DNA of 35,409 nucleotides from a virus. The stretch lies in IMG/VR virus record IMGVR_UViG_3300045988_175750; one strand, written 5' to 3'. Position numbers and translations under genes: made by a program. Below the pieces are notes generated by a model. The model did not search any database. It saw only the letters and a list, made by a program, of their open reading frames with translations, and was not told the origin of the DNA. Below are positions 8,001-35,409 of this stretch, one piece after another (position 1 is the stretch's first letter; the number at the start of each line of letters is the position of its first letter).

Positions 8001-8619
8001 TGAAGACGCCTTCGGTTGTGGTGCCGAGCTGATCCGCGAGCGCCTGGTAAATGGGGATGCCTCGGTCTGCGACCTGCTGAAGCACGTCGTTTTGGGCTTT
8101 GCCCAAGGACGCGACCTTGTTATAGATTGCGCCCATTTCCTCCATTGATGAGCCGCTGGATGCGGCGGAGTTCGCAACGGAGGTTAGGACTTTCTCTAGC
8201 CTTTCGCCGGGGGCGATGCCAGCGGCTACGGCACCGGCTGCGGTGGTTGCTGCGGCGTCGAGCCCGAATGCGGTTCCTTTCACTGCTGCGGAGGCGTTGG
8301 ACATGATTGTCTTCACGGCATCCGCATCATGCCCGAGGCCGCGCAGCTTTGCTTGGGCAACGTCGATAGCTTTCAGGCGGGAGAAGCCTTTACTGAAGGC
8401 GGTGCCGAAGATTCCGGCGACGGGGATTGCGGCGACGCCTGCGGCGACTACTTTTCCGATGGTGCCGCCGAAGAGGCGGCCGAAGCCGGAGGATGCTTTC
8501 GCCCCGGCTTCGGCGCCTGCCCGGTCGCCTGCGGCGGCCATGTCGGTAATGATGGACGCGCCCACGCCCTTAGTGCTTGCGATGACGGAGACGTATGCTT
8601 TAGCGAGTTCGTATGCCAT
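5089..8619 (-). CDS. Tail tape measure protein
   Basis: At 1176 aa it is the longest ORF. It is Ala/Gly-rich with a long hydrophobic I/V/L-rich core and a GIHSPSRVM motif, and it lies directly after the G/GT chaperone pair. Confidence 0.92.
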   Translation of the reverse strand: MAYELAKAYVSVIASTKGVGASIITDMAAAGDRAGAEAGAKASSGFGRLFGGTIGKVVAAGVAAIPVAGIFGTAFSKGFSRLKAIDVAQAKLRGLGHDADAVKTIMSNASAAVKGTAFGLDAAATTAAGAVAAGIAPGERLEKVLTSVANSAASSGSSMEEMGAIYNKVASLGKAQNDVLQQVADRGIPIYQALADQLGTTTEGVFKLASDGKINFEQFEKAMTKASGTVAKEMGNTLPGAFENAKAALGRFGANILGGVYPVLTKFFLKFQEWMKPVEEFGKIIGKVLGGAVDWLVQKAGQLAQQAAPVIQSAFDVMKNAAKSFATGFSEAMGAWGDSSLWGAMFSVLGEAIQGLAGKFQGHGGTIVSVAKDLGGILGTWLPPIAGSIVGIFTNIVRVAGELAGAVMSIIPHFQGLGDAAGGGLEGALATVHGILEKVSESLYTLSEFIGQHQEAVGILIGVLGGAKLAYEGVTTAIDLGKGALDVYKTGIDAVTGTVDAIKAVGEGFKLVKEGAGTAQDVAELGKAAELGAKAFEAQELALKGAAAAAAVYKAAMGGVVSGIKAVWGALSANPLGAIVTALALVAAGLVYFFTQTEVGRQAWDNLMKAIQPVIDTIVPILGELGRTIVEAFQPLVAQVVPKIQEFGKTAADVFGKLAQQMVPVFERILKGNAETGGGLIGALAKVADAVVPKVMAALETVGNMFQTLGPTFISFGERFGAAFMQIGDHLTPLIPMVVDFGVQLVQAFQPLIPVIVDQLLPAIMELVGTILGLFPQIAGIFLQLLPVLAPIVGMFIEIQSAVAQLAIQLITALMPVLTTVISVFAAILAAIIPLVVFIISSLIPVILSLVEALIPLITTIIDILVPIIKNVLDIVITVVNAIVPIIKAAIDIIINVIKLFTSILKGDWEGAWNAILGILKGIWDLIVSVIEGAIKIVWQVIASAIDIIKNVWNAAWDGIGKIVSTIWEGIKKGVSDGIHNVIGFFQKMGVDIVNELNSLPGKLVQMGTDIINGLVNGIKNAAGAVYQAVKSIADGLPGWMKGPLGIHSPSRVMRDEVGKWIPLGLAEGISKNSDAVADAITDMTDKAVDAAREGFAGVEDAIAPGLLSSRVDLSSSAYGAPPAALRGSASTARPAAYGQRSGFTVQVTGSDKMDPDRFGRRFGEAFAHEMEGILV

Positions 8620-19868: not shown

Positions 19869-20217
19869 AACCAGGTTTTAACCGCGGAGCCGTCCCGACC
19901 CATCCCGTCCCGGCATATCCAGGTCCGTCAGCCACAAAACCCAGATAGGACTAAAGACAAACCAGGTTTTAACCGCGGAGCCGTCCCGACCCATCCCGTC
20001 CCGGCATATCCAGGTCCGTCAGCCACAAAACCCAGATAGGACTAAAGACAAACCAGGTTTTAACCGCGGAGCCGTCCCGACCCATCCCGTCCCGGCATAT
20101 CCAGGTCCGTCAGCCACAAAACCCAGATAGGACTAAAGACAAACCAGGTTTTAACCGCGGAGCCGTCCCGACCCATCCCGTCCCGGCATATCCAGGTCCG
20201 TCAGCCACAAAACCCAG
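19869..20217. repeat. 91-bp perfect tandem repeat, 3 full copies plus a truncated fourth
   Basis: The unit ccaggttttaaccgcggagccgtcccgacccatcccgtcccggcatatccaggtccgtcagccacaaaacccagataggactaaagacaaa starts at 19871, 19962, 20053 and 20144. The array is intergenic. Confidence 0.95.
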
Positions 20218-20327
20218 AACGGACCCAGAACGGACCCAGAACGGACCCAGAACGGACCCAGAACGGACCCAGAACGGACCCAGAACGGACCCAGAACGGA
20301 CCCAGAACGGACCCAGAACGGACCCAG
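20213..20327. repeat. 11-bp perfect tandem repeat cccagaacgga, 10 copies plus a partial one (iteron-like, one helical turn)
   Basis: Units start at 20213, 20224 and so on up to 20312, continuous with the truncated fourth 91-bp unit. Confidence 0.95.
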
Positions 20328-20368: not shown

Positions 20369-21574
20369 TCATTTTCTGCGTTTTCCTCCCCGGCGCCTGC
20401 GACGGCTCGGCAGGGCGTTAGTGCAGGGCGGTGGCGCGCTCACCGCCAAAGCACTTTTCGGCGATTCTTCTTCCCCCTCTCCTATATCAGAGGCAAAAAG
20501 GGCTAAACCTTTTTCCTTCTCTTCGTCGCTTAATTTCCAAAAGCCCACCTCTGGGGCAAGGGCCTCAGAGTCAGCGCCGCCAGGTGCGTTAAGTGAGGCC
20601 GGGGCCTCAAGTCGCATCGAATCCGCAGCCGAAGCCGCGGCATCTGAAACGGAGCCCACCTCTGGGGCAAGGGCCTCAGAGTCAGCGCCGCCAGGTGCGT
20701 TAAGTGAGGCCGGGGCCTCAAGTCGCATCGAATCCGCAGCCGAAGCCGCGGCATCTGAAACGGAGCCCACCTCTGGGGCAAGGGCCTCAGAGTCAGCGCC
20801 GCCAGGTGCGTTAAGTGAGGCCGGGGCCTCAAGTCGCATCGAATCCGCAGCCGAAGCCGCGGCATCTGAAACGGAGCCCACCTCTGGGGCAAGCTTTTTA
20901 GGCATTGGCTTTTCGCTCTCGGGCGAGGGCCGCACCGGGTAGCCCTGCGCGGCTAGATACATCGCTGTGCTATGCGAGAAAAAAGGCTTTTTAGGGGCAG
21001 GCAGCAAGCCGCCCAGGTCTTTATTGTCTTTGCGGGCCGAGTTACACGAGCGGCAGCAGACAACCATATCGTCAGTCGTTTCCGCTGGCTCGCCAGGCTT
21101 GAGGTGATCGTAGGTTCCGCCGCGGCCGCCTTTGTGGTCGTTCCAATTAACAACCTTGCCGCACCAGCGGCATGCGTCTCCATCCCTCAAACGCACGGGG
21201 ATTGTAATGTCTTTATTACGGGTGTCGTTCCGGCGCTGATTTTCCCATTCCATTTCACTACGGAGGCGCATGTGGAATAGCTCTGGGTCTTCCACGATTC
21301 GGTATGTCTTTTTGCCGTTCTCTTCTAGCTCTTCGGTGAAGTACCCGCAGTGAAAGGCCGCCGGGATGAGCCGATCTGCCCGCCCGTCGCTAAGCATGAT
21401 CGCGGCTGATTCCTCAATGAGGTAATCAGAACGGAAGGAAGCAGCAAAGCTCGCGCACCGTCCCGCGAACCCGAAGAGCTCGTTAAGCAGCCCCGGGTAT
21501 GTCTGCGAGTAAGTGTAGGCCCTGTACACGATTGGATTCATGTGTGCATTGTCCGAGACTTTGAGCCAAGGCAT
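20369..21574 (-). CDS. HNH-motif zinc-finger protein with triplicated 37-aa linker and basic tail; possible replication initiator/organiser
   Basis: This 401-aa ORF begins MPWLKVSDNAHMNP. HNH-like motif: CRWCG...TYDHLKPG...VVCCRSCNSARKD. The segment APEVGSVSDAAASAADSMRLEAPASLNAPGGADSEAL occurs three times, and the protein ends RRRRRGGKRRK. Confidence 0.7.
   Translation of the reverse strand: MPWLKVSDNAHMNPIVYRAYTYSQTYPGLLNELFGFAGRCASFAASFRSDYLIEESAAIMLSDGRADRLIPAAFHCGYFTEELEENGKKTYRIVEDPELFHMRLRSEMEWENQRRNDTRNKDITIPVRLRDGDACRWCGKVVNWNDHKGGRGGTYDHLKPGEPAETTDDMVVCCRSCNSARKDNKDLGGLLPAPKKPFFSHSTAMYLAAQGYPVRPSPESEKPMPKKLAPEVGSVSDAAASAADSMRLEAPASLNAPGGADSEALAPEVGSVSDAAASAADSMRLEAPASLNAPGGADSEALAPEVGSVSDAAASAADSMRLEAPASLNAPGGADSEALAPEVGFWKLSDEEKEKGLALFASDIGEGEEESPKSALAVSAPPPCTNALPSRRRRRGGKRRK
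20542..20893 (-). repeat. 111-bp perfect in-frame tandem repeat, about 3.2 copies, inside CDS 20369..21574
   Basis: The marker ctggggcaag recurs at 20551, 20662, 20773 and 20884 (period 111 bp, equal to 37 codons). Confidence 0.95.
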
Positions 21575-21924: not shown

Positions 21925-22827
21925 TTACCCCTGGGCAAGCTCGAAATCATCTTGGGTAATATTTTGCGCCGCAGACTGCAAAGCATTCAGCCCTTCCACG
22001 ATTTCCGCGACTTCCTCATCAGATGCCTCTTCGCCAGGCTCGCTAAGGAAGGATTTTAAAACCCGCGCCTTATCTGCCTCAGTGGGCTCAAACTCGATAG
22101 GATCAGTCCCAGCGATCAGCTCAGCTTGCTCATTCAACACCGCGAGCGCGGGGGTGAATGAATCAATCTGTTTGTTGAGTGGGCGGCCGGGGTTGATGTA
22201 GGCGCCTACTACGGCGGTGGCTTTGTCTCCGCACATGATGCGGGCCTGGTTTTGGGTAGTGATTGTGGCGCTCACTCCGTATGTTTCGGTGAGTTTTGTG
22301 AGTGCCCCATATTGTCCGGGGAAGAGTACTCCGGTGAGGGTTTCGGGGGTTATTTTTTTGCCGTTGTTGCTGAGTAATTTCAACGTTTGGCGGTATGGCA
22401 GGTGTGCATGTTTTTCCCCTGCGAAGGTTAGCTCTACGGGGCTGTGCACTACTTCTGCCTCTGCCAGGGTGATAGTGCACTGGTTCCCGAATAGCGGGTT
22501 TTCTTCGGTGTCCACTGTGAAATGAAGGGGTTTCGGATCGTCTTTTGTGGCGCGGAATAGGCTCACGATTTGGCGGATTTTTTCGCGGCCGATGGCGAAT
22601 TCTTCGATGTGTCCGTCCCAGTCTGCGATGTCGCAGATGATGGCTGCGGTAATTTTTTTGACGCTTGAGGTTGCGACTAGCAGGAGTTTCCCGGTGGTGG
22701 TGGGGCGGCCGTAGATTATTTCGCAGGATTCTGCTTCTTCTGGTTCGCCTTTGGGGATGGCGTGAGTGATGGGGGCTAGTGCGCGGAGTGCTGGGGAGAG
22801 CTCGGCGGCGTCGATGACGAATTCCAT
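21925..22827 (-). CDS. Hypothetical early protein, possibly sliding-clamp (DnaN)-like
   Basis: This 300-aa ORF has an N-terminus (MEFVIDAAELSPALRALAPI) resembling the opening of a beta-clamp, plus an acidic C-terminal tail. The resemblance is weak and from memory only. Confidence 0.3.
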   Translation of the reverse strand: MEFVIDAAELSPALRALAPITHAIPKGEPEEAESCEIIYGRPTTTGKLLLVATSSVKKITAAIICDIADWDGHIEEFAIGREKIRQIVSLFRATKDDPKPLHFTVDTEENPLFGNQCTITLAEAEVVHSPVELTFAGEKHAHLPYRQTLKLLSNNGKKITPETLTGVLFPGQYGALTKLTETYGVSATITTQNQARIMCGDKATAVVGAYINPGRPLNKQIDSFTPALAVLNEQAELIAGTDPIEFEPTEADKARVLKSFLSEPGEEASDEEVAEIVEGLNALQSAAQNITQDDFELAQG

Positions 22828-25568: not shown

Positions 25569-25853
25569 TTAGTGGCGGGCGCTGGATCGTGCCGTGTACC
25601 TGAATGGGGTTGCGGCGTTGATGAGTGTTTTGGCGGCGGCCTCGGGGTCTGCTGCTGGCGTGTGTTCCAGGCTGTCGGCGATGGTTTGGAGGTGGGATTC
25701 TGCGAATCCGATTCGGCCGCCGCCGTATTTTCGACCTCCGATGTGTGGATATTTTCCTGAGACTGCGCGGTCGTGCAGGGTTCGGGGGCTGACTACTCCG
25801 CCGAGGATTTTTGATGCTTCTGCGGCGGTGTATATTTTTTCTCCGATTCGCAT
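25569..25853 (-). CDS. Excisionase-family HTH protein (candidate Xis/RDF or regulator)
   Basis: 94 aa from ATG 25853, overlapping the upstream stop (TAATG). The motif IYTAAEASKILGGVVSPRTLHDRAVSGKYPHIG is typical of the Xis/MerR-like HTH. Confidence 0.65.
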   Translation of the reverse strand: MRIGEKIYTAAEASKILGGVVSPRTLHDRAVSGKYPHIGGRKYGGGRIGFAESHLQTIADSLEHTPAADPEAAAKTLINAATPFRYTARSSARH

Positions 25854-26380
25854 TATTGTTCGTCCTCGATGTCGTCGTTTTCGTGGTACTGGGCTTTTTC
25901 GATGTATTTCTCGATGACGGAGATTTTCATGAGCCGGTCTGTTTCTAGTGCGGCTTTCCAGAATTTTTCTTTGTGCTGTACGGCGCGGGAGCCGATGAGT
26001 TCTCCGGTTGGTGAGCGGAGGGTTTCTACTCGGATCCATAGGCCTGCTTCTTCGTTGTAGAGCGCGAAGCATTCCATTTTCCGGCCTGCTTGGTCGTTGA
26101 ACGCTTTGATTGGCTGGGCCTGTAGCGCCAGTTGGGACACTTCGTCTTTGGCGGGTTTCTCGGGTTCTTCGGGTTTGCTGTCTTTAGCGTTGTTGAGTAG
26201 CCAGTCGCCGGTTGAGAAGGTCTTGCCTTTTTCTGCTTTCTGGTTGTCTACTTCTTCGCTGGCTGCTTTGACTAGCCCTTTGGCGGTTTCTTCTTGGACT
26301 CCGATCAGCCTTAGCACCTTTACGAGGATTTCTTCGCTGGCGGCTTTGGCGTACTCGCTCTTGCGGGTTTCTTCGCTCAT
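25853..26380 (-). CDS. Hypothetical early protein with acidic tail
   Basis: This 175-aa ORF ends ENDDIEDEQ. I recognise no motif. Confidence 0.6.
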   Translation of the reverse strand: MSEETRKSEYAKAASEEILVKVLRLIGVQEETAKGLVKAASEEVDNQKAEKGKTFSTGDWLLNNAKDSKPEEPEKPAKDEVSQLALQAQPIKAFNDQAGRKMECFALYNEEAGLWIRVETLRSPTGELIGSRAVQHKEKFWKAALETDRLMKISVIEKYIEKAQYHENDDIEDEQ

Positions 26381-26396
26381 TGTTTTCTCCTTTTGG

Positions 26397-26744
26397 TTAT
26401 GCGGCGACTTTGGGGGTGCGTTCCGCGCGGGTTGTGCGGTGGTTTTGGAATTTGGTTTTTGCGTTGGCGCGGCGGGTAGTTTTTGCGTCTAAGAATCGCA
26501 TGACGGTTGAGAGGCGGAAATAAACCATGTTCCACTCGCCGGGTTTTTCTGATTCGAGGTAACAGTCCGGCTTTAGTGCGCCGGTGAGGCGGTTCATGTA
26601 CCCGCCAGTAACCGTTGTTATTTTCACGCCTGCGCGGGCGGCGACTTCTGCGGGTGTGATGACTGCTTCGCTTACACCTTCTGGGGGCGGCAGGTGCTTG
26701 TAGAGCGCTTTCCAGCGTGCCTTAAATTTCAGTTCGGAGCTCAT
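26397..26744 (-). CDS. Hypothetical protein, possible HTH
   Basis: This 115-aa ORF contains the HTH-like segment ITPAEVAARAGVKITTVTGGYMNR and has a basic C-terminus. Confidence 0.55.
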   Translation of the reverse strand: MSSELKFKARWKALYKHLPPPEGVSEAVITPAEVAARAGVKITTVTGGYMNRLTGALKPDCYLESEKPGEWNMVYFRLSTVMRFLDAKTTRRANAKTKFQNHRTTRAERTPKVAA

Positions 26745-26949
26745 TTTCGTTTTCCTCTTTGCTCTCTTGGTTTGCTTGCCCTTGGTTTAGCCATGTGTTG
26801 GCTGCCAGTGCCGCGCATATTGCGGTTCCGATTGTTCCGCCGTTGAATGCTCCGGCGGTTCCTGCGGCCCATGCGGTTGTTGAGCCGATGGCGCAGAATA
26901 GGGCTGCGGCGGCCCATGCTAGGGCTGGGATGGTCTGGTTGCTTTTCAT
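26722..26949 (-). CDS. Small membrane protein (2 TM)
   Basis: This 75-aa ORF has two Ala/Gly-rich hydrophobic segments. Confidence 0.5.
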   Translation of the reverse strand: MKSNQTIPALAWAAAALFCAIGSTTAWAAGTAGAFNGGTIGTAICAALAANTWLNQGQANQESKEENENELRTEI

Positions 26950-26967
26950 GTTCTTTCTGGCTTTTTG

Positions 26968-27198
26968 CTAGTCGAAGGTTTGCCAGGTGTTTAGGTTTTG
27001 GCGTAGGTCTTCGAGGGTGTCTGCTACCTCATCTTTGAGCGCCTGCTGTGTAGGGAGCGCTGTGTCTGATGAGAGTAAGTTCAGGATTTTTGTTAGTTTC
27101 TCAGCCGCCCGTGTGGTTTGCGCGACTGCTGTTCGGTTCGGTGTCCCTAGAAAGGCTAGGCCTTGGGATGCGGTGAACTCTTTCACTGATTTCTCCAT
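26968..27198 (-). CDS. Hypothetical early protein
   Basis: This 76-aa ORF is the second gene of the early rightward-equivalent operon. Confidence 0.55.
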   Translation of the reverse strand: MEKSVKEFTASQGLAFLGTPNRTAVAQTTRAAEKLTKILNLLSSDTALPTQQALKDEVADTLEDLRQNLNTWQTFD

Positions 27199-27200
27199 AT

Positions 27201-27476
27201 TTAGTTTTTATTCGGGGATGCCTTGGTTTCGGGTTCGTTTGTGAAGAACCATTCAATAGGTACCCCGAGGATATTTGCGGCATCCCATAGCTGGGTTACG
27301 AGGATGGGCTGTTCACCTGAGAATATCCTTGTTGCGACAGACTGATGTACGCCCCAGGTCTCTGCAAAGATTTTCTTCATGATGCCCTTGCGTTCCCTTG
27401 CAAGGTTTAGGTTCTTAACGATCTTCCGAGCGGCTGGTGTGTCCCAACGGCTAGACCGTGTAAGATTCTGGTTCAT
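27201..27476 (-). CDS. Cro-like XRE-family HTH regulator
   Basis: This 91-aa ORF carries the HTH IFAETWGVHQSVATRIFSGEQ and has the RBS AGGAGA. It is divergent from the cI-like gene. Confidence 0.75.
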   Translation of the reverse strand: MNQNLTRSSRWDTPAARKIVKNLNLARERKGIMKKIFAETWGVHQSVATRIFSGEQPILVTQLWDAANILGVPIEWFFTNEPETKASPNKN

Positions 27477-27588: not shown

Positions 27589-27849
27589 ATGAGTAGCAAA
27601 GCTTCCGGTAAAGCGAATGTTTTCTCTCAGCTCGTGAATGCTGAACTTAGTCTCTGGATAGAGAGGAGAGGCCTTTCTCTTCGTGGACTGCAAACAGAGA
27701 CAGGAATCAGCCGCTCACGGTTGGGAAAGACGATTAATCAAGACTTGGCCCCTCTGAACCTGAATGAGCTAGATACGATCTGTACGGCGCTGGATATCTC
27801 ACCGTTGGATGTTGTTCAAGCTGCGGAACGACGGCTTGAGGAAAGATAA
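27589..27849 (+). CDS. cI-like XRE-family HTH repressor (short, 86 aa)
   Basis: The HTH is LSLRGLQTETGISRSRLGKTIN. There is no SD sequence upstream, so the mRNA is possibly leaderless. The gene is divergent from the cro-like gene and co-oriented with the integrase. Confidence 0.75.
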   Translation: MSSKASGKANVFSQLVNAELSLWIERRGLSLRGLQTETGISRSRLGKTINQDLAPLNLNELDTICTALDISPLDVVQAAERRLEER

Positions 27850-27858
27850 TACACAAAT

Positions 27859-27894
27859 AAGCCCCCTGCCTTGCATGTGCTAGGCAGGGGGCTT
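27859..27894 (+). terminator. Stem-loop after the repressor gene
   Basis: A 12-bp perfect stem, aagccccctgcc-N12-ggcagggggctt, with no strong U-tract. Confidence 0.5.
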
Positions 27895-28199
27895 ATCCGT
27901 TCACATGACTGAGAAAGGAAAGGCTGGCTGCTGCCAGCTTCCGGGGAGCAGCAGCCAAAATCACCGATGCAAATATCGTATATGAGCGTGTTGATGCCAT
28001 CAACAAACCTGCCGTATTTCCAGCGTTGTTGAGCGTTGTTAAACGGCAAGTTCCGCGTGTTTTCAAGGGTCTACGCATAGGGTGTAAAAACAAGCGGTTT
28101 TCAACTCCCCCCTCGCGCACACCAAAACCCTTGAAATTCCAAGGAAGAATCCCCCGACTGTTGATTTCGGGGGATTTTTTGTTGATGTAGGGCTAAAAT
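27895..28199. other. Non-coding region upstream of int: candidate attP
   Basis: About 300 bp of lower-GC sequence with no credible ORF. It contains the palindrome gttgatgccatcaac (27990..28004), the direct repeat agcgttgtt x2 (28022..28040), GTTTTCAA x2 plus inverted acccttgaaa (28059..28136), and a terminator-like hairpin at 28149..28181. Confidence 0.45.
28149..28181 (+). terminator. Rho-independent-type hairpin about 25 nt upstream of int
   Basis: The sequence atcccccga-N9-tcgggggat is followed by tttttt. Confidence 0.55.
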
Positions 28200-28205
28200 T
28201 TGAGC

Positions 28206-29288
28206 ATGGCTTCCATTAGAAAAAACCAGCGCAAGGATGGAACTACGGTCTGGGCCGTCCTTTGGCGAGAAAATGGCAAACAGACCTCCCGAACCTTTCC
28301 CACTGAGTACGACGCGCGGATGCTCAAAGATTTTCTGGACGCAAACGGCAATAGCTTTGAGCTCGCGGCGCAAGCTGCTGCGCGGCTGCAATCAACAAAG
28401 CCGACGGTAGACACCATCATCCGGCGGCATATAGATTCTCTCACTTCGATCACAAACGGCACGAGGCTAAAATACGGGCGCATCTACGAGCAGCACATCA
28501 TGGCTCCGCTCGGCTCAATCCCAATCGACGCGCTCAGCCGAACAGACATCACCAGATGGTTCAACCGGCTAGGACGCGCCGAAAAGACCAAACGAAACAT
28601 CCACAGCCTACTCTCATCCGCCCTCGCGGCGGCCGTCAAAGAAGGCATCATCGACTCAAACCCAGCCGTCGGAATCCGCGGAGAGCGCGAACTATCCAGC
28701 GTGCAGGCCGTCTTTCTCAGCCGCGAACAATTCCTACTGATAACCTCCCACATCCGAGAAGAATTTAGCCTATTTGTCCGTTTCCTCGAAGCCACAGGGC
28801 TGCGATTCGGAGAGGCAACCGCGCTGCGCTGGCAAGACATCGACCTCCGCAGTGAGCGCGGGGTAGTGCACGTAAGCCGGGCGGTGCGGCGCGGAGAACG
28901 CGGCGTGACTATCGGCGTGCCAAAAACCCGGTCATCCGTGCGCTCTGTCTCCCTGCCGCTATGGCTCGGCGATGAGCTGCGGGAAGCGCGGGAAGGACAC
29001 GGGCCGGGAGAACTCGTTTTCCAATCGCCAGGCGGGCTAGTGCTCACAAACGGCTACTTCCACCGCCGCGCCTGGATACCCCTCATGAACCAGATTGGCG
29101 CTGAGCTTGGCTGCCGCCCCCGCGTCCATGACCTGCGGCACACGCACGCATCACGGCTCATCGAGGCCGGGGTTCCGCTTCCGGTGATTCAGCGGCGGCT
29201 CGGGCATGAATCTATCACTACCACGGTCGGCACCTATGGACACCTCTCTATCGACGCCGATTCAAAGGCCGCGTCCGTACTGGACTAG
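28206..29288 (+). CDS. int: Tyrosine integrase
   Basis: 360 aa from ATG 28206 (MASIRKNQRKDGTTVWAV...). The C-terminal catalytic pattern is HDLRHTHASRLIEAGVPLPVIQRRLGHESITTTVGTYGHL. Confidence 0.93.
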   Translation: MASIRKNQRKDGTTVWAVLWRENGKQTSRTFPTEYDARMLKDFLDANGNSFELAAQAAARLQSTKPTVDTIIRRHIDSLTSITNGTRLKYGRIYEQHIMAPLGSIPIDALSRTDITRWFNRLGRAEKTKRNIHSLLSSALAAAVKEGIIDSNPAVGIRGERELSSVQAVFLSREQFLLITSHIREEFSLFVRFLEATGLRFGEATALRWQDIDLRSERGVVHVSRAVRRGERGVTIGVPKTRSSVRSVSLPLWLGDELREAREGHGPGELVFQSPGGLVLTNGYFHRRAWIPLMNQIGAELGCRPRVHDLRHTHASRLIEAGVPLPVIQRRLGHESITTTVGTYGHLSIDADSKAASVLD

Positions 29289-29319
29289 CCGAATGTGATT
29301 TATTTAACCAAATCCTAAC

Positions 29320-29350
29320 TTGCTTAACTATTTACACTTCTGTAAAGTGT
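29320..29350 (+). promoter_or_regulatory. Putative promoter and operator of the cargo operon
   Basis: TTGCTT (29320..29325), 17-nt spacer, TAAAGT (29343..29348). The palindrome ACACTT-N5-AAGTGT (29334..29350) overlaps the -10. Confidence 0.4.
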
Positions 29351-29402
29351 TATATGTCAGGTGGTAAACAGGCCATCGACAAAGCAACCAGAAAAAGGAA
29401 AC

Positions 29403-30653
29403 ATGATGGAAAAGCAAGCCCTCACTGGAACCGAAGCGGCCGAATTCCTCGGCCTCAGCCGTCAGCGCTTCTATCAGCTGCTCAAAACTTACCCCTTGGC
29501 CCCCAATAAGCCTGCCAAAGGCAAGACCCGCCGCACATGGGATAAGCAAGCGCTCATCGCATGGCGTGCAGCGCACCTCGCAGAAGGCGCCCCGACAAAA
29601 GAAGAACAAGGACTTACCCCCGATGAACGTATCGGACGCGGGATGCCCACCCGGTTCAAGGACTTCAAAACCTACATCGGGTTAGGCGCACGCATCCTTT
29701 CCGCATACCCCGCAGAAAACTACGCCGAAGGCTGGGGAGCGAAAGCTCGCCGCTGGATCAACGAACACGGCGCAGGGGCGAACGTGAAAGACCTACAGGG
29801 TGTTTGGGATATTGGCTTCTGTTGGGGCGGGTGGAGCGACGCGGGCCTCACCTCTGGCGCGCACAGCTCAGCCCGCGCAAAGCTTGGGCCGCGTTCAACT
29901 TGGCACTACCACGCCGCGCTCGATGCAAAAACTAGCCTGCTTACTGTCTTCCGTCAGCTCTATTGGTCCGTCAATATTAACGGCTGGGCATACGGCGAGC
30001 GCGTCGAGCAGATTTTCTCTGATGTTTCTGAGGCGTTTGATGTTTCGTCTTTGACTGATGATGAGAATGTGCTGGCGCAGATTGATTCTTATTTTGGTGA
30101 GTCGTTGGTTGGTGAGTTGCGTGCTGCGGCTGCTGTTTATTCTCCTAGCTCTGAGGAATGGGCTCTTGTTCAGATTTTTCTTGAGGATTTGGAGCAGGTG
30201 CGGGCGTCTGGTGAGCGGGGGGTGTTGGAGGATGTTCCCGCTTACATGGCTGAGGCTTATGTTCCGTCTCGTGTGCCTGCGCCTTTCCGTTTGCGGCTTG
30301 TTGAGAGTGGGCCGGGTATTGCTTTGCGGTTTTTGGTGGATGATGCGCAGCGGGCGGTAAATCCTGAGTTCTTTGAGGCGTTGGAGCGGGTAGGTGATGG
30401 GAAGGTTTTTTCTGTCCCTGCGGTTGATAGGGATTTGCTCGGGATTAATGCGGAGGCGGCGAAATATGCTGTTGAGGAGCATCTTTTGAATTCTTTGGCG
30501 GGGGCTGCGTGTGGGCTTGGGTATAGGCTCGTTTTTTCCCCTGTGGGTCGTTATGATGCGACGCATGGGCGGTGCGTGAATGATTTTGGAGATATTTATG
30601 AGGGCTCTGTTAGCGAGCTTCCGATAAAGCGGTTTGGAGATGGAAATGAGTAA
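29403..30653 (+). CDS. Cargo protein: N-terminal Xis/MerR-like HTH fused to about 340 aa of unknown function
   Basis: 416 aa from ATG 29403 (AAAAAGGAAAC upstream). The HTH is LTGTEAAEFLGLSRQRFYQLLKTYPLAP...WDKQALIAWR. The remainder is Trp-rich with no motif I recognise. The composition is protein-like, unlike the antisense ORF. Confidence 0.75.
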   Translation: MMEKQALTGTEAAEFLGLSRQRFYQLLKTYPLAPNKPAKGKTRRTWDKQALIAWRAAHLAEGAPTKEEQGLTPDERIGRGMPTRFKDFKTYIGLGARILSAYPAENYAEGWGAKARRWINEHGAGANVKDLQGVWDIGFCWGGWSDAGLTSGAHSSARAKLGPRSTWHYHAALDAKTSLLTVFRQLYWSVNINGWAYGERVEQIFSDVSEAFDVSSLTDDENVLAQIDSYFGESLVGELRAAAAVYSPSSEEWALVQIFLEDLEQVRASGERGVLEDVPAYMAEAYVPSRVPAPFRLRLVESGPGIALRFLVDDAQRAVNPEFFEALERVGDGKVFSVPAVDRDLLGINAEAAKYAVEEHLLNSLAGAACGLGYRLVFSPVGRYDATHGRCVNDFGDIYEGSVSELPIKRFGDGNE

Positions 30654-30660
30654 TGCGTCT

Positions 30661-30753
30661 ATGGATGATTGGTTGCGGCGGATGGGGTTTGTTTCGCAGG
30701 TTTGGCCTGTGAAAGATAGCTCTGATGAGTCGGATAAGGCAGGTGCGAAATGA
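30661..30753 (+). CDS. Possible 30-aa micro-ORF coupled to the next gene
   Basis: MDDWLRRMGFVSQVWPVKDSSDESDKAGAK. Its TGA overlaps the ATG of the next ORF as ATGA. The RBS is weak, so confidence is low. Confidence 0.25.
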   Translation: MDDWLRRMGFVSQVWPVKDSSDESDKAGAK

Positions 30754-31139
30754 GTTTTACGGCGGATGAGCGGGCGGCTCAGGTCGCGGCTGTGCGGGAG
30801 CTCGTGGATGATGGGTTTGTCCCTGTTATTGAGTGGGTTCTTTGGGTTCGGGACGGGTCGGTTTCTGCTGAGTGTCTTCTCTTGTTCCGCACCCCGTGCG
30901 ATGTGCATTATCGGCAGACGGATAGCGTTTTATGTGAGGCGGGGAACCTTATCTCGGTCTATTGGTTGGGGATAGACCCTCTGCCCGATGATAATAGATC
31001 GTTTACGTTTCGTGGGTCTGTTGAGCAGCCGGAATTTAGGGAGCGTCAGAGGCAAGTTGCGGCGGAGCTTTTTGCGCCGTTAGGGCTTGCCGAGTCAGAG
31101 GTTGAGGTTCTGGCGGATTATATTACCGCGGCCGATTAG
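30750..31139 (+). CDS. Cargo protein, acidic, unknown function
   Basis: This 129-aa ORF has the same T/G-ending codon usage as the 3' half of the upstream ORF and is followed by a strong terminator. Confidence 0.7.
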   Translation: MSFTADERAAQVAAVRELVDDGFVPVIEWVLWVRDGSVSAECLLLFRTPCDVHYRQTDSVLCEAGNLISVYWLGIDPLPDDNRSFTFRGSVEQPEFRERQRQVAAELFAPLGLAESEVEVLADYITAAD

Positions 31140-31154
31140 GGGCTGAGAAATACG

Positions 31155-31208
31155 AAAAATGGGGGAGCCCCGAAGACATGAGTAGTCTTCGGGGCTCCCC
31201 CTATTTTT
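31155..31208. terminator. Bidirectional rho-independent terminator between the convergent cargo operon and lysis cassette
   Basis: A 17-bp perfect stem, gggggagccccgaagac-N7-gtcttcggggctccccc, flanked by aaaaat and tattttt. Confidence 0.85.
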
Positions 31209-31222
31209 GGGTCGCCTTTAGA

Positions 31223-31618
31223 TTATGAGGCGTGCCTGGGCGTGTAGTCGCCCATCTCGGTTGTGTCGATGACTTTCCCTTGCGGGTTCAGCAGAGGTTC
31301 GGGTTCTACTGCGGGCGGGTGCCCGGTGCGCCCGGTCTCGGCTGCGGGCCGTGCGATGGGCTCGGTGGGCGGGTTCGAGAGGGTTTCCTCGATCCGCCCT
31401 AGTGCCGCCGTCACGTCGGGGTGCGGCTCCATCTCTACACCTGCGCCACTGTGGCTGACGTTGATAATTGCAATCACGAGCATGAACACGGCAGGGACGA
31501 CAGGGAGCCAGAGCGCGAGCTGGGTTTGAGTGATAATCCCGTGCCCTACCGCGGCGGCGCCGATGAGGGCGGCGACAGCATAGAGGGCCGAGCGGAGGTT
31601 AGCTAATTTTTGGGGCAT
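31223..31618 (-). CDS. Holin (2 TM)
   Basis: 131 aa from ATG 31618 (GAAGGA RBS, 2 nt after the endolysin stop). The two hydrophobic helices are ALYAVAALIGAAAVGHGII and LALWLPVVPAVFMLVIAIINV. It lies last in the lysis cassette. Confidence 0.75.
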   Translation of the reverse strand: MPQKLANLRSALYAVAALIGAAAVGHGIITQTQLALWLPVVPAVFMLVIAIINVSHSGAGVEMEPHPDVTAALGRIEETLSNPPTEPIARPAAETGRTGHPPAVEPEPLLNPQGKVIDTTEMGDYTPRHAS

Positions 31619-31620
31619 GG

Positions 31621-32370
31621 TTAGAATCCTTCCCCCCACGTGGTTGCGGGGTTTCCATCATTCGGGCCAATAGCGATGAAGCGGCGGCGGCCTGCCGCGT
31701 TCGTGTAGGTGAGCCACACATAGCCGTTTTCAGCGACCCAGCCGTCGTAAGCGAATCCTTGGCCGGGCGCGTACCAGCCTTGCGATGGGCTGCTCGGGTC
31801 GGTGTCGTTCGAGACCGCGAGGCGTGCTGATGCGGTGAACCAGCCGCTTGCGGGCGTCCACCGGGTGCTGCCGCGCTGCTGCTGTGCCTGTGCCGCGGCG
31901 GGGCGGGAGCGCACCACGGGTGCGGCCCCATCAGCGGGCGGGCGGTAAAACGCGTACTGCGGCGAATAGGCGGCAGCCCAGTAGGCGTTGTGGTTCTGGA
32001 TAGTGATGCCGTTATTGCCGTAATTACAATGGATGATGTTTTCGTTATCGTCCACGAAAAACCCGGTATGCCCGGCGGAGCCTGTGGACGCGCCACGCAC
32101 GCCCCAGATGAAAACGTCTCCACGGCGCACCTTCACATCGCCGGTCGCGTCTGGTTGGAGCCGCGTAAACCCGGCCCGCTCCAAATCATTAAACAGGCTA
32201 TCAGTGTTCCCAATCGGGGTGTTGTCTGGCAGCAGCCCCGCAGCTTTAAGAGCGAAATAGACCGAGGATGAGCAATCATAGCTGCCCGGCCCCCAGCGGT
32301 TCGCCATCGAGTAAGTCACGCGGCCGCGGCGATCCTGCATCCACGCGAGCGCTGTATCAATTCGACCCAT
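31621..32370 (-). CDS. Endolysin: Amidase_5-type N-acetylmuramoyl-L-alanine amidase plus SH3_5-like cell-wall binding domain
   Basis: This 249-aa ORF contains AWMQDRRGRVTYSM...GSYDCSSSVYFALKAAG...GDVFIWG...AGHTGFF...IIHCNY, as in Pal-type phage amidases. The C-terminus has GYVWLTYTNAAGRRRFIAIG. Confidence 0.88.
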   Translation of the reverse strand: MGRIDTALAWMQDRRGRVTYSMANRWGPGSYDCSSSVYFALKAAGLLPDNTPIGNTDSLFNDLERAGFTRLQPDATGDVKVRRGDVFIWGVRGASTGSAGHTGFFVDDNENIIHCNYGNNGITIQNHNAYWAAAYSPQYAFYRPPADGAAPVVRSRPAAAQAQQQRGSTRWTPASGWFTASARLAVSNDTDPSSPSQGWYAPGQGFAYDGWVAENGYVWLTYTNAAGRRRFIAIGPNDGNPATTWGEGF

Positions 32371-32909: not shown

Positions 32910-35195
32910 TTACCCCTCGTAGGCTGTCCCTGGGAGTTGCGTAGGCCAAGGGTCGGTTGTTGTCCACACGAGCGAACCCATCATAGCCCGGCTAGTGTTA
33001 CGCTCCACTCGCATAACCAGGTTGTTATACCAAGAGAAAAAACCGAGCGTGCCCACTTGGAAAGGTTGCCCGTTCCCGATATTCGACGTGACAATAGCCG
33101 ACACTGCGAAACGGTTATCATGCGTATACCGAGGGCCGCCGCTTCGGTCGGGGTAATTCGGTAGCGCCCCGAGCGCCGGTAAGAATCCCTTAGGTAGTGT
33201 CTTACTTTCTAAAACAACGTTCTGCTTTGTGAATTGCGGTGCTGCTGAACCGTGCCTGCGCTCCGGGTTGGTGGTTACCATCCAGACCTGCACCGTGCTT
33301 CCCACGCGGCGTATGAGCACATCGCATAGGCCGCCGCTTTCACTGATGGTCTCCAACAAGCGGATCCCTGTGTCTTGAAGAACGGCCGCACCACCGCCAC
33401 CGCCGCCTTGCGGGCGGGCTTCCAGAGCCTCTACCCGGCGGGCAAGCGCATCAGCCCTAGAGATGAGAGACGATAGGTCGGTTTCTGGGATGGTGACGGA
33501 GCCGCCATCTGGGGTTAGCTTGAGAGTTTTCCCCTCTAGTTCCAGCCGTTGCGGGGCCGCGGCCTGTGGCATGGGTGCTGCGGCTGCGGGGGCGCCAACG
33601 ACGTAGCCTATCATTTTCTGTTCTGTGCGCACGAACCAGGCCATCGCTGGGTATTCGGCTGGCGCTGCGCCTTTAGCCCATTCAATGTTTTCTGGGTGTT
33701 TCGCTGGTGCGCCTTCGAAGTAGACGGCCTGCACCTGTAGCCCCGTGTCTAGGGTGTACTCTGCCCCTGCCTTGGGGGTCTGTACGGGGTTATCACGGCG
33801 GAGGGTTGAGCGGTAGATGTTGTTCACATCTATAACGCAGCCTTCGCGCATGTCTTTCCCGATCCTGACGGCGCGGGGCTCCCCGGCTTGGTTTTTGGGG
33901 TGTTCCCGCGCCTGGGCCTGTTCGATACGCAGGTTAGAGAACCAGCTCTCGATGAAGAAGCCCCAGCGGGCGGATGAGGTTTTAGCGCGGGGGGATTCTG
34001 CGGTGCACCCGATCATGAGTGAGTTAGATGCGCCGTTGCAAACATAGAAGTCTGCTGCTTCGTAGGTTCGGGCCGCGCCGCCGAGCGTGTCCGTGTACGA
34101 GGAAGACTCGGCGGAGCATTCAGAGAAGGTGTTTTTGCCCCACTGGATAACCCAGCCATGCCCCCCGTTGTCTTGCGCTTCGCAGCCGATGAACTTGTTC
34201 TTGGTCCCTTTGATGAACCACCCGGCGCCTGCAAATAGCTTGTCCCGGTTCTTCGGGTTTTCCCACGCCTCTTCCCCGCTGATTTCTTCATACGCCCCAG
34301 CGAGCGCGCCTTCTTGGGTTAGCTCTGGGGTGGTGGGGCGGCCGTAGATGTCTTGCCAGGGGAGGGTACGGCGGGAGTACCAGACTTTACAGGTATCAAA
34401 CGTTACCTGGGATGTGTAGATTTCTACGCCTGCGTGGAGGCCTCCGGTTTCTTTGTTGGCGCCGCCGACGTTGAGGGCGATAAATTTGTTGTCTGCGCCG
34501 CCTGCGCCGCCGGGGGCTCCGGCTTTCAATTCGGGGTGTTCGGGGTGTTTGCCGATTTGGATTCCGGCTTTTAGGGTTTGTCGTATTTTGAGGTTTACGG
34601 AGACCATTTCTTGATCGTCGCGGCCGAGGATGGCTGCGCCCATATCCATATCCCAGATTTCGACGTTTGAGAGTGTGGGGCGGGCGTCTGGTTCGACGGA
34701 GCCGGTGCCGAGGTCGGTGTTCCAGATGATGCCGCAGACGTTGGGGATTGGTTCTTCGTGCTGGGCGAGTGAGCCGTTGCGGGCTAGGATCATGAGGTTT
34801 TCCACGCCGAACCGCACGAGGGCGGGGTCTTGTTCTCGGGTGTTGTATGTTCCGGTGTGGAAGACTCCGGTCATTTCGGGGACTTGGGTGTCTGCGGTGG
34901 CGAATACGCGGGTGCCTTCTCCGGCGCCGTGTACTCGTACTTTCCCTTTCATTTTCAGGAATGGGTAGGAAACTTTATAGGTTCCGCTGGGGAGGAAGAC
35001 GCTGCCGCCGCCGAGTTCGTGGGCTTTGTCGATTGCTTTTTGGATGGCGTCGGTTGAGTCTTTTAGCCCGTAGGGGTCTGCGCCGAAGTCGGGGGATGCG
35101 GCGTTGAGGGATGCGCCGGTGTAGACGGCTTGGGCTGCTTCTAGCCCGGCGCCAGTGAACCGCCCGTTTAAGAGGGTGGGAACGATTGTTGCCAT
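32910..35195 (-). CDS. Tailspike / receptor-binding depolymerase with pectate-lyase-superfamily beta-helix
   Basis: This 761-aa ORF has the N-terminal hallmark DSTDAIQKAIDKAHELGGGSVFLPSGTYKVS. A coiled-coil segment (ADALARRVEALEARPQ), a GGGGGG linker and a C-terminal domain of about 170 aa follow. Confidence 0.8.
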   Translation of the reverse strand: MATIVPTLLNGRFTGAGLEAAQAVYTGASLNAASPDFGADPYGLKDSTDAIQKAIDKAHELGGGSVFLPSGTYKVSYPFLKMKGKVRVHGAGEGTRVFATADTQVPEMTGVFHTGTYNTREQDPALVRFGVENLMILARNGSLAQHEEPIPNVCGIIWNTDLGTGSVEPDARPTLSNVEIWDMDMGAAILGRDDQEMVSVNLKIRQTLKAGIQIGKHPEHPELKAGAPGGAGGADNKFIALNVGGANKETGGLHAGVEIYTSQVTFDTCKVWYSRRTLPWQDIYGRPTTPELTQEGALAGAYEEISGEEAWENPKNRDKLFAGAGWFIKGTKNKFIGCEAQDNGGHGWVIQWGKNTFSECSAESSSYTDTLGGAARTYEAADFYVCNGASNSLMIGCTAESPRAKTSSARWGFFIESWFSNLRIEQAQAREHPKNQAGEPRAVRIGKDMREGCVIDVNNIYRSTLRRDNPVQTPKAGAEYTLDTGLQVQAVYFEGAPAKHPENIEWAKGAAPAEYPAMAWFVRTEQKMIGYVVGAPAAAAPMPQAAAPQRLELEGKTLKLTPDGGSVTIPETDLSSLISRADALARRVEALEARPQGGGGGGAAVLQDTGIRLLETISESGGLCDVLIRRVGSTVQVWMVTTNPERRHGSAAPQFTKQNVVLESKTLPKGFLPALGALPNYPDRSGGPRYTHDNRFAVSAIVTSNIGNGQPFQVGTLGFFSWYNNLVMRVERNTSRAMMGSLVWTTTDPWPTQLPGTAYEG

Positions 35196-35204
35196 GCTTT
35201 GCTC

Positions 35205-35409
35205 CTAGCTGTTGAGGGTTACAGTCCCGTTGCCGTTGTCTGTCCAAGAGGCGCCGCCGGGGGTGGGGGCTGCGGCTTTGGCTGCTTCGGTGGCTTCCTG
35301 GATAATCTGCGGTTTCGCGGCCGCAACAGCCTCCGACGCGGCCGTCTTCGCCGATTCGGTGGCTTCCTGGATAATCTGCGGTTTCGCGGCCGCAACAGCC
35401 TCCGACGCG
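35205..35409 (-). CDS. Ala-rich repeat protein, C-terminal part (continuation of 1..219 across the junction)
   Basis: Translation: ...ASEAVAAAKPQIIQEATESAKTAASEAVAAAKPQIIQEATEAAKAAAPTPGGASWTDNGNGTVTLNS, stop at 35205..35207. The frame matches 1..219 when the 31-nt overlap is merged. Confidence 0.6.
   Translation of the reverse strand, partial: ASEAVAAAKPQIIQEATESAKTAASEAVAAAKPQIIQEATEAAKAAAPTPGGASWTDNGNGTVTLNS
35292..35409 (-). repeat. 69-bp (23-codon) in-frame tandem repeat that continues into nt 1..55
   Basis: The unit ggcttcctggataatctgcggtttcgcggccgcaacagcctccgacgcggccgtcttcgccgattcggt starts at 35292 and 35361. Nt 1..55 match 35310..35364. Confidence 0.9.

What the first reader, a model, noticed from the sequence alone, without database searches (positions are those of the whole stretch)
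29289..31208. Unrecognisable three-ORF cargo operon on the lysogeny side (HTH-fused 416-aa protein, 30-aa coupled micro-ORF, 129-aa acidic protein): candidate prophage-encoded defence or exclusion system
These are the only genes besides the repressor and int that run against the ~50 minus-strand lytic genes. They sit between int and the lysis cassette, the classic moron slot. They have their own sigma70-like promoter (TTGCTT-17-TAAAGT, 29320..29348), overlapped by the palindrome ACACTT-N5-AAGTGT. They end at a 17-bp-stem bidirectional terminator (31155..31208), which suggests independent expression in the lysogen. The first protein starts with a Xis/MerR-type HTH, which could bind that palindrome, and is followed by about 340 Trp-rich residues with no motif I can name. 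The micro-ORF stop overlaps the next start as ATGA. The last protein is acidic and also unrecognisable. In temperate actinophages this int/repressor-adjacent position is where prophage-mediated defence genes have been found experimentally. A sensor/effector plus small-partner architecture would fit that role.
Basis: partly seen in the sequence, partly recalled or inferred. Interest (0 to 1): 0.8.

Follow-up and report, generated by a model that had tools for sequence, protein, structure and literature searches.

The report
Orphan HTH-led Rothia phage moron operon
A self-contained three-gene accessory cassette beside the integrase of a temperate Rothia phage is real and kept by selection, but apart from a DNA-binding head its proteins match nothing known, so a defence role is possible but unproven.

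Summary
The window is a complete circular temperate Rothia siphovirus related to phage Spartoi. Between int and the holin lies a plus-strand unit: promoter, a 415-aa gene, a 35-aa coupled micro-ORF, a 129-aa gene, and a 17-bp-stem bidirectional terminator. All three ORFs are under purifying selection, and a codon-phase signal confirms that the micro-ORF is coding. The large protein starts with a Xis/AlpA/BldC-type winged HTH. This head is homologous to a stand-alone 82-aa HTH protein in the same slot of related phages. The remaining ~350 aa, the micro-protein and the 129-aa protein match nothing in Pfam, PHROGs, NCBIfam, PADLOC or PDB. The large-protein family has only four clusters among ~15 billion proteins, on Rothia-associated mobile DNA. 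Its ~38-bp promoter/dyad block travels with it, but the two small genes do not. So this is a classic moron built around an autonomous, probably autoregulated DNA-binding protein, not a conserved three-gene system. Defence is neither supported nor excluded. Separately, the cassette's 3' 1.1 kb has ~90% G/T at wobble positions, starting sharply at codon 200. This is one of several strand-tied patches across the genome, and it explains part of the acidity and unrecognisability.

The parts
29320..29348 (+). Promoter: -35 TTGCTT (29320-29325), 17-nt spacer, -10 TAAAGT (29343-29348)
   Evidence: Read from the sequence. It matches 8 of 12 consensus positions and was not called by the scan. The block CTTGnnTAACTnTTnACA..TGTAAAnT is conserved upstream of homologues with 46% protein identity, which have TTGAAT-17-TAAACT.
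29331..29350 (.). Two overlapping dyads on the -10: TTTACA-N4-TGTAAA (29331-29346) and ACACTT-N5-AAGTGT (29334-29350). Candidate operator for the HTH protein.
   Evidence: The first dyad is the only perfect site in the window. It is perfect upstream of the P0003/P0024 homologues and 5/6 in the window's close relatives (T29341C). The second dyad is perfect in the window, L003 and L006, 5/6 in L004, and 4/6 in L001 and L091. Binding is inferred, not shown.
29406..30653 (+). Gene A, 415 aa (416 if started at ATG 29403; ORF open from GTG 29361). An orphan, mobile-element-borne protein led by an HTH.
   Evidence: start codon. Purifying selection: pN/pS 0.07-0.15 for the N half and 0.14-0.35 for the C half. 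Only four homologous clusters exist.
29406..29591 (+). Gene A residues ~1-62: winged HTH of the Xis/AlpA/BldC (MerR-superfamily) type
   Evidence: HTH_17 at 17.8 bits, below Pfam's cut-off of 27. Excisionase PHROGs match with E from 7e-4 to 2e-2. Model pLDDT is 70-86 in this stretch. Foldseek matches RdfS, Pukovnik Xis, BldC, AlpA, PrtN and Spartoi gp31 with probability 0.9-1.0. The region is 41-43% identical to the 82-aa slot HTH of relatives.
29592..30200 (+). Gene A residues ~63-265: basic, Trp-rich, predicted all-helical core, conserved across the whole family
   Evidence: The profile match to the most distant member, P0005, covers profile positions 1-263. Helices are predicted at low confidence.
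30201..30650 (+). Gene A residues ~266-415: acidic C-terminal region that varies between family members
   Evidence: It aligns with P0002 and P0003 but not convincingly with P0005. The last 215 residues have pI 4.3. No family or PDB match.
30006..31139 (+). Patch with ~81-90% G/T at codon third positions (C3 ~0-10%). It starts abruptly at codon 200 of gene A and runs to the end of the 129-aa gene.
   Evidence: Change point at nt 30006, log-likelihood ratio 141. The signal follows the reading frame of each ORF. It is absent from the distant homologues.
30646..30753 (+). Micro-ORF, 35 aa (MSNASMDDWLRRMGFVSQVWPVKDSSDESDKAGAK). Alternative starts at 30634, 30640 and 30661. Translationally coupled on both sides.
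   Evidence: The wobble G/T phase shifts into this frame from about 30634. GGAG lies 6 nt upstream of ATG 30646. Sd:Nd counts in the four pairwise comparisons among window, L006, L011 and L003 are 1:0, 2:1, 3:1 and 1:0; the pairs are not independent. No homologue outside this phage lineage.
30750..31139 (+). Gene C, 129 aa, acidic (pI 4.27), lineage-specific orphan
   Evidence: Only relatives at 96-98% identity exist. pN/pS is 0.13-0.47. No family match. The model has pLDDT 46.
31155..31207 (.). Bidirectional intrinsic terminator shared with the convergent holin gene
   Evidence: 17-bp stem with 13 G-C pairs, called on both strands. 23-nt arms. -48.2 kcal/mol, z = -8.4.
28200..29288 (+). Tyrosine integrase immediately upstream (context)
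   Evidence: Phage_integrase E = 1.7e-22 and phrog_1 E = 1e-67.
27589..27849 (+). Cro/CI-type repressor (context), divergent from the Cro-like gene at 27476-27201
   Evidence: HTH_26 E = 5e-9. HTH_3 for the 91-aa gene.
31223..32370 (-). Holin-like gene and Amidase_5/SH3_5 endolysin genes, convergent with the cassette (context)

Best explanation
The region is an autonomous accessory transcription unit (a 'moron') in the variable int-to-lysis slot of a temperate Rothia siphovirus.

Its core is gene A, a member of a tiny family found on Rothia-associated mobile DNA. The protein has an N-terminal Xis/AlpA/BldC-type winged HTH, a conserved Trp-rich helical domain, and a variable acidic tail.

Inferred mechanism. 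Gene A's protein binds the dyad(s) that overlap the -10 of its own conserved promoter. This would autoregulate the cassette, most plausibly holding it at a low constitutive level in the lysogen. The helical and acidic part would carry the actual activity or sense a signal. The 35-aa and 129-aa acidic proteins are additions specific to this phage lineage. They are made in fixed ratio with gene A by translational coupling.

What is shown: the gene structure, the coupling geometry, the promoter and terminator, purifying selection, the HTH fold class, the family distribution and the variability of the slot. What is inferred: DNA binding at the dyad, expression in the lysogen, and any phenotype. 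The biological role (conflict between mobile elements, or control of integration and excision) cannot be assigned from sequence.
For: Self-contained unit. The promoter block is 30 of 38 positions identical between this phage and homologues that share only 46% protein identity. In those homologues the gene is also followed directly by a hairpin terminator. The window has a strong bidirectional terminator.

Variable slot. Spartoi carries 9 other genes in this slot, and 11 related viral contigs carry 5-9 other genes there.

Real genes. pN/pS is 0.07-0.35 for gene A and 0.13-0.47 for the 129-aa gene. Micro-ORF changes are mostly synonymous. The wobble signal tracks all three reading frames.

DNA-binding head. 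Searches support it. It is the only Xis-type HTH in the genome.

Operator candidate. A unique perfect dyad lies over the -10, and the same dyad is present upstream of the P0003/P0024 homologues.

Family is autonomous. It comprises four clusters only. They lie on a 35-kb phage, on recurrent 99-125-kb Rothia contigs, and on an ICE-like element. The partner genes differ in each setting.
Against: No expression data exist. The promoter matches the sigma-70 consensus at only 8 of 12 positions. Neither dyad is perfect in all family members. Xis/BldC-type HTH proteins usually bind direct repeats head-to-tail rather than palindromes (established knowledge). There is no terminator between int and the cassette, so read-through from int is possible. 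About 85% of gene A and both small proteins have no recognisable fold or motif.
Confidence: 0.6

Rival explanations
1. Prophage-encoded anti-phage defence or superinfection-exclusion module. Gene A senses or binds incoming phage DNA or protein, and the small acidic proteins act as effector or antidote.
For: The position and orientation match experimentally shown prophage-mediated defence loci of actinophages. Those loci lie near int and the repressor, at the prophage ends, and are expressed in the lysogen (PMC6426596, read). The cassette has moron architecture. The family is confined to mobile elements and is oriented against the backbone genes in the ICE-like element as well. The homologue's neighbourhood holds an AcrVA2-like gene.
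Against: The only PADLOC hit is an HTH match to mad1 at 19.8 bits. No nuclease, ATPase, NTase, TIR, Sir2, protease or membrane motif was found. The three genes do not co-occur outside this one lineage. Slot cargo in relatives shows no known defence genes either, only an orphan Dam methylase.
Confidence: 0.25
2. Recombination directionality or excision control. Gene A's N-terminal Xis-type domain acts with the adjacent integrase, and the C-terminal part adds regulation.
For: The top structural matches are RdfS excisionase, Pukovnik Xis and phage 'Excise' proteins. The gene is immediately downstream of int and co-oriented with it. It is the only Xis-type HTH in the genome. Relatives keep a homologous stand-alone 82-aa HTH in the same slot. 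In the ICE-like element the homologue lies 3.6 kb from int in the same orientation.
Against: Known Xis proteins are 50-110 aa, whereas this one is 415 aa. The dyad half-sites are not found in the candidate attP region, 27897-28199. The Rothia homologues P0002, P0003 and P0024 have no integrase within 10 kb upstream. The same fold also serves AlpA/PrtN-type activators and small-terminase DNA-binding domains.
Confidence: 0.2
3. The cassette is a lytic-cycle accessory operon, transcribed during infection rather than in the lysogen. Possible roles are host takeover or anti-defence, with the acidic proteins acting as mimics or inhibitors.
For: Small acidic phage proteins are often inhibitors (established knowledge). 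Opposite orientation alone does not prove lysogenic expression. No terminator separates int from the cassette.
Against: The cassette is co-oriented with the repressor and int and convergent with the lysis genes behind a very strong bidirectional terminator. It has its own promoter, which is conserved even where the gene sits outside any phage. Part of the acidity is a by-product of mutation bias.
Confidence: 0.12
4. The region is decaying or non-functional DNA, and the ORFs stay open only because of skewed composition.
For: The G/T-rich wobble removes stop codons. It even creates a spurious 337-aa antisense ORF at 29895-30908, whose translation is low-complexity.
Against: pN/pS is well below 1 for all three ORFs. 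Gene A is colinear along its full length with homologues at 46% identity. The skew sits at third positions in the frame of each ORF.
Confidence: 0.03

Closest known systems
Rothia phage Spartoi gp31 and its orthologues: the 82-aa 'helix-turn-helix DNA binding domain protein' in the int-to-lysis slot
   Same: It lies in the same slot, on the same strand and in the same phage group. It is 41-43% identical to residues 12-53 of gene A and was recovered by fold search (rank 11).
   Different: It is a stand-alone protein of 82 aa. It lacks the ~350-aa Trp-rich and acidic extension, and it sits in the middle of a 5-9-gene operon rather than at its head.
Excisionase / AlpA / BldC / RdfS group of MerR-superfamily winged-HTH proteins (Pfam HTH_17, TIGR01764)
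   Same: The predicted fold of residues ~1-60 matches (probability 0.9-1.0). Weak sequence matches exist. The gene lies next to a tyrosine integrase.
   Different: Scores are below the curated cut-offs (17.8 against 27 bits; 14-20 against 28.8 bits). The protein is four to eight times longer than members of this group. No binding to attP or to direct repeats has been shown.
Lysogenically expressed prophage-mediated defence operons of actinobacteriophages, such as Sbash gp30/31 (PMC6426596)
   Same: These are small operons of unknown-function genes close to int and the repressor, near the prophage ends, with independent transcription.
   Different: There is no sequence similarity. No expression or phenotype data exist for this cassette, and its gene content is not conserved as a set.
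Classical phage morons: promoter-gene-terminator insertions between conserved genes (concept from lambdoid phage comparisons; from my own knowledge)
   Same: The cassette has its own promoter and terminator. It is inserted between conserved int and lysis modules. Its content differs between close relatives, and its base composition is atypical.
   Different: The atypical composition is a strand-tied G/T wobble patch that begins inside gene A, not at the cassette boundary. It therefore does not simply mark foreign origin.

Membership tests
Moron (autonomous accessory transcription unit in a phage genome) | Own promoter upstream and own terminator downstream | tested here: met
   The -35/-10 block is conserved across 46%-identity homologues. 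A 17-bp-stem terminator is present, z = -8.4. Promoter activity itself was not measured.
Moron (autonomous accessory transcription unit in a phage genome) | Present between genes that are adjacent, or differently filled, in related phages | tested here: met
   The int-to-lysis slot holds unrelated gene sets in Spartoi and in 11 related viral contigs.
Moron (autonomous accessory transcription unit in a phage genome) | Expressed from the repressed prophage | not testable with these tools
   This needs RNA-seq or 5'-RACE of a lysogen.
Excisionase / HTH_17 (PF12728, TIGR01764) | Sequence score above the curated family threshold | tested here: not met
   PF12728 scores 17.8 bits against a cut-off of 27. 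TIGR01764 scores 14.2 bits for the window protein and 20 bits for P0002, against a cut-off of 28.8.
Excisionase / HTH_17 (PF12728, TIGR01764) | Winged-helix fold of the Xis/MerR type | tested here: inconclusive
   The N-terminal 60 residues are modelled at pLDDT 70-86. They match RdfS, Pukovnik Xis, BldC and AlpA with probability 0.9-1.0, but with E > 0.01 and from a 4-sequence alignment.
Excisionase / HTH_17 (PF12728, TIGR01764) | Small stand-alone protein that bends attP arm DNA and directs excision | tested here: not met
   The protein is 415 aa. Operator half-sites are absent from the attP candidate. Activity cannot be tested here.
Known anti-phage defence systems (PADLOC-DB v2) | Profile match of at least one component to a defence protein model | tested here: not met
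   The only hit is an HTH match to mad1 (19.8 bits, residues 3-59). Nothing matches the micro-ORF or the 129-aa protein.
Conserved multi-gene system (sensor/effector plus small partner, or toxin-antitoxin-like) | Components co-occur in different genomic backgrounds | tested here: not met
   The 35-aa and 129-aa genes occur only in the >=95%-identical phage lineage. Homologues P0002, P0003 and P0024 are solo genes. P0005 is paired with an unrelated 220-aa gene.
MerR-type transcription regulators | Dyad operator centred in an over-long (19-20 bp) -35/-10 spacer, plus a C-terminal coiled-coil and effector domain | tested here: not met
   The spacer is 17 nt and the dyads overlap the -10 rather than being centred in the spacer. 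No MerR model matches.
Prophage-mediated defence of actinobacteriophages (Cluster N / Sbash / CarolAnn type) | Lysogenic expression and heterotypic plating defect | not testable with these tools
   Only the positional criterion (near int and the repressor) is met.

The most novel reading that the evidence does not exclude
Gene A founds an unrecognised family of conflict or control proteins confined to Rothia-associated mobile DNA. In this reading, a Xis-type winged HTH both autoregulates the cassette and targets foreign or own DNA. This phage lineage has added two coupled small acidic partners. The 1.1-kb patch with ~90% G/T at wobble positions, which starts inside the gene, would record a patchy, strand-specific C-to-T and A-to-G hypermutation or recombination history of these phages, and not ordinary codon usage.
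Probability: 0.2. Interest if true: 0.7.

Novelty: new variant of a known kind. Interest (0 to 1): 0.4.

Why it matters
Rothia species are abundant members of the human oral and airway flora, and their phages are almost unstudied. This cassette is carried by a phage that recurs as ~35.3-kb contigs in many public assemblies. Any phenotype it gives lysogens, whether phage exclusion, excision control or host regulation, would therefore act in a common human commensal.

The large protein offers a compact, testable case of a Xis-type DNA-binding head joined to an unknown domain. It moves between a phage, an ICE-like element and a ~120-kb Rothia contig type together with its own promoter.

The plus-strand genes also serve as a natural control. 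They show that the extreme wobble skew in these phages follows the DNA strand, not the coding sense. That bears on how mutation bias can make phage proteins acidic and unrecognisable.

Tried and rejected
1. Family libraries. Pfam, PHROGs, PADLOC and NCBIfam scans of all three proteins and of the homologues returned only weak HTH hits. A CATASP hit (E = 0.014) appears only in two 96%-identical sequences and was dismissed as noise.
2. Homologue searches. Word-indexed searches were run with a single sequence and with a 5-sequence profile. An exhaustive HMMER profile search was run over 1.84 billion representatives. Together they found four clusters and no more. The 129-aa protein has only near-identical relatives.
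3. Annotated collections. INPHARED phages (DNA and tblastn), PLSDB plasmids and 185,579 GTDB species genomes gave no match. IMG/VR gave one near-identical contig.
4. Structure. AlphaFold2 models of gene A (pLDDT 48) and the 129-aa protein (pLDDT 46) are unusable beyond the HTH. Foldseek against PDB and BFVD matched only the HTH. A PDB sequence-profile search found nothing. I did not run a fold search on the 129-aa model because its confidence is too low to be meaningful.
5. Link between the 129-aa protein and slot proteins of relatives. The best match is to the L012/L013 117-aa protein, with E = 0.016 in a database of about 110 sequences. That is too weak to claim.
6. Partner genes of the distant homologues show no similarity to the micro-ORF or the 129-aa protein.
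7. The antisense 337-aa ORF (29895-30908) was rejected as a by-product of A-depleted wobble positions. Its translation is low-complexity and basic.
8. Rfam gave no RNA family in the window, and no tRNA genes were found.
9. Further copies of the operator elsewhere in the genome or in attP were not found.
Full report
**What the window is.** The large terminase is 82% identical in protein to that of Rothia phage Spartoi, and the structural genes match Spartoi DNA at ~73% identity. The window carries a 31-nt exact terminal direct repeat, so it is a circular assembly. An identical-length JGI/IMG contig of 35,409 nt holds a 416-aa member of the gene A cluster. The window is therefore a complete temperate siphovirus genome, shown in the opposite orientation to Spartoi. 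The layout is: tail genes, lysis genes (holin 31639-31223, Amidase_5/SH3_5 lysin 32370-31621), the cassette, int (28200-29288), a candidate attP, the repressor (27589-27849), a divergent Cro-like gene, and the early genes.

**Checking the observation.** The three plus-strand ORFs, the ATGA overlap and the terminator are all present. There are three corrections.
- The first ATG of gene A (29403) reads ATA in three close relatives, so the start is probably 29406 and the protein 415 aa.
- The micro-ORF is better modelled as 35 aa starting at ATG 30646. GGAG lies 6 nt upstream, and the ORF overlaps gene A's stop by 8 nt. In this region G/T reaches ~90% at third codon positions, and that signal jumps into the micro-ORF frame from about 30634 and back into the 129-aa frame at 30750. 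This is direct evidence that all three frames are coding.
- Trp richness is confined to the first 200 residues (10 of 11 Trp). The last 215 residues are acidic, pI 4.3.

The promoter TTGCTT-17-TAAAGT is a weak consensus match and the scan did not call it. However, the surrounding block is 30 of 38 positions identical to the region upstream of homologues that share only 46% protein identity (TTGAAT-17-TAAACT). That conservation is the best evidence that the promoter is functional.

**Are these real genes?** Comparison with three relatives at 95-96% identity (L003, L006, L011) gives pN/pS of 0.07-0.15 for gene A's N half and 0.14-0.35 for its C half. The 129-aa gene gives 0.13-0.47. Micro-ORF changes are mostly synonymous: Sd:Nd is 1:0, 2:1, 3:1 and 1:0 in four non-independent pairwise comparisons. 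Gene A is colinear along its full length with 400-aa homologues at 44-47% identity. The 337-aa antisense ORF (29895-30908) is a by-product of A-poor wobble positions.

**What the proteins are.** Residues ~1-60 of gene A form a winged HTH of the Xis/AlpA/BldC type. The evidence:
- weak HTH_17, TIGR01764 and excisionase-PHROG hits;
- this is the only confidently modelled part of the protein;
- fold matches to RdfS, Pukovnik Xis, BldC, AlpA, PrtN and Spartoi gp31 with probability 0.9-1.0.

This head is 41-43% identical to the stand-alone 82-aa HTH protein that occupies the same slot in Spartoi and related viral contigs. It is the only HTH of this type in the genome. The remaining ~350 residues, the micro-protein and the 129-aa protein match nothing in Pfam, PHROGs, PADLOC, NCBIfam or PDB sequences. 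Both AlphaFold2 models are of low confidence (pLDDT 48 and 46).

**Distribution.** Across ~15 billion proteins the family has four 90%-identity clusters.
- The phage allele recurs on many ~35.3-kb contigs.
- Two 400-aa clusters are annotated in Rothia mucilaginosa and Rothia sp. HMSC071B01 (WP_070505362.1). They always lie 3-5 kb from one end of recurrent 99-125-kb contigs. The gene is solo there, with the conserved promoter, its own hairpin terminator, and repeat-rich non-coding flanks.
- A 404-aa relative shares only the first ~263 profile positions. It sits in an ICE-like element (VirB4-like, TcpC, FtsK-like, int and ParE/Phd hits, several of them weak or faint), behind an unrelated 220-aa gene and oriented against the backbone.

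The family is absent from INPHARED, PLSDB and the GTDB species representatives. The micro-ORF and the 129-aa gene occur only in the phage lineage. The conserved unit is therefore promoter plus gene A plus terminator, not the three-gene set.

**The slot.** In Spartoi and 11 related viral contigs the int-to-lysis interval holds 5-9 other small plus-strand genes. These include the 82-aa HTH and an orphan Dam methylase, and the rest are unknown. None matches a known defence model. This is a genuine variable cargo slot. By analogy with Sbash and the Cluster N mycobacteriophages it is a plausible place for lysogenically expressed defence genes (PMC6426596). That remains an analogy only.

**Regulation (inferred).** Two overlapping dyads cover the -10.
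- TTTACA-N4-TGTAAA (29331-29346) is the only perfect site in the window. It is perfect upstream of the P0003/P0024 homologues and 5/6 in the window's close relatives.
- ACACTT-N5-AAGTGT is perfect in the window, L003 and L006, and 4-5/6 in the distant homologues.

The recognition helix (SRQRFYQLL) is identical in the window protein, P0001, P0002 and P0003. Autorepression by gene A is the simplest reading. Against it, Xis/BldC-type proteins usually bind direct repeats.

**Compositional discontinuity.** Third-position G+T rises from 0.36 to 0.90 at codon 200 (nt 30006; log-likelihood ratio 141), while C3 falls to 0-10%. The patch continues to the end of the 129-aa gene. The distant homologues lack this jump. 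Comparable patches, in which the plus strand is 80-100% G/T at wobble positions, occur throughout the genome inside minus-strand genes. Examples are 293-724, parts of the tape-measure gene, and 25853-26949. They also occur in relatives. Because the cassette is coded on the other strand, it shows that the bias follows the DNA strand and not the coding sense.

This pattern fits C-to-T plus A-to-G pressure on the plus strand, as expected from deamination of single-stranded DNA (PMC3269015 abstract), together with mosaic recombination. The sharp border inside the gene implies recombination between two alleles of gene A. Majority-polarised singleton substitutions in the unskewed N half show 34 C>T plus A>G against 14 G>A plus T>C. 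This count is small and only suggestive. Compared with P0002, the C half has lost Lys, Thr, Ile and Met and gained Val, Ala and Gly. Part of the acidity and unrecognisability is therefore a mutational by-product.

**Verdict.** This is a real, selected, self-contained moron. Its core is an orphan Xis-type-HTH protein that is probably autoregulatory, with two lineage-specific coupled partners. Defence (about 0.25) and excision control (about 0.2) remain open. Neither has direct support, and no known family can be assigned.

Noticed in passing
whole window; e.g. 293-724, parts of 5089-8619, 21925-22827, 25853-26949, 30006-31139, parts of 32910-35195: The genome is a mosaic of patches where the plus strand is 80-100% G/T at codon third positions, whichever strand the gene is on. 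The switches are sharp and fall inside genes. This suggests strand-tied C>T and A>G mutation pressure combined with mosaic recombination.
   Followed up: partly
window 19869-20218, 20212-20327, 20542-20893: Three 100%-identical tandem arrays: 91 bp x 3.8, 11 bp x 10.5, and 111 bp x 3.2. The last lies inside the 401-aa ORF at 20369-21574. They could be replication-origin iterons, or a repeat protein, or an assembly effect.
   Followed up: no
window 27857-28199: The repressor-int intergenic region has a 19-nt-arm hairpin (27857-27896), repeated TGTTGA/TCAACA motifs and a CCCCCGA/TCGGGGG hairpin. It is probably attP with integrase arm sites. If so, the cassette would lie about 1.2 kb from the int-proximal prophage junction.
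   Followed up: partly
window 1-31 and 35379-35409: A 31-nt exact terminal direct repeat indicates a circular assembly, and a ~66-nt duplicated unit lies next to the junction.
   Followed up: partly
L001 6600-11440; L004; L091-L095: The 400-aa Rothia homologue sits alone within kilobases of non-coding DNA. That DNA is packed with 8-bp-periodic CCAACAAGTCGGAAAGTTGG-type repeats and TGCAATCACTGCA-type repeats. The gene always lies 3-5 kb from one end of recurrent 99-125-kb contigs, and AcrVA2-like and toxin-like genes are nearby. This may be a discrete ~120-kb element.
   Followed up: partly
L005 (Spartoi) 26733-26978: Spartoi gp39, annotated 'excise', aligns as a Cro/CI-type HTH and occupies the Cro position. 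The window's counterpart at that position (27201-27476) matches HTH_3. The Xis-type HTH in these phages is instead the slot protein gp31.
   Followed up: partly
L020 8714-9302; L024 8420-9008: In relatives, the Dam-like methylase region in the same slot shows a similar switch to ~0.8 G/T at wobble positions, between its 5' ORF and the adjoining 3' ORF.
   Followed up: no
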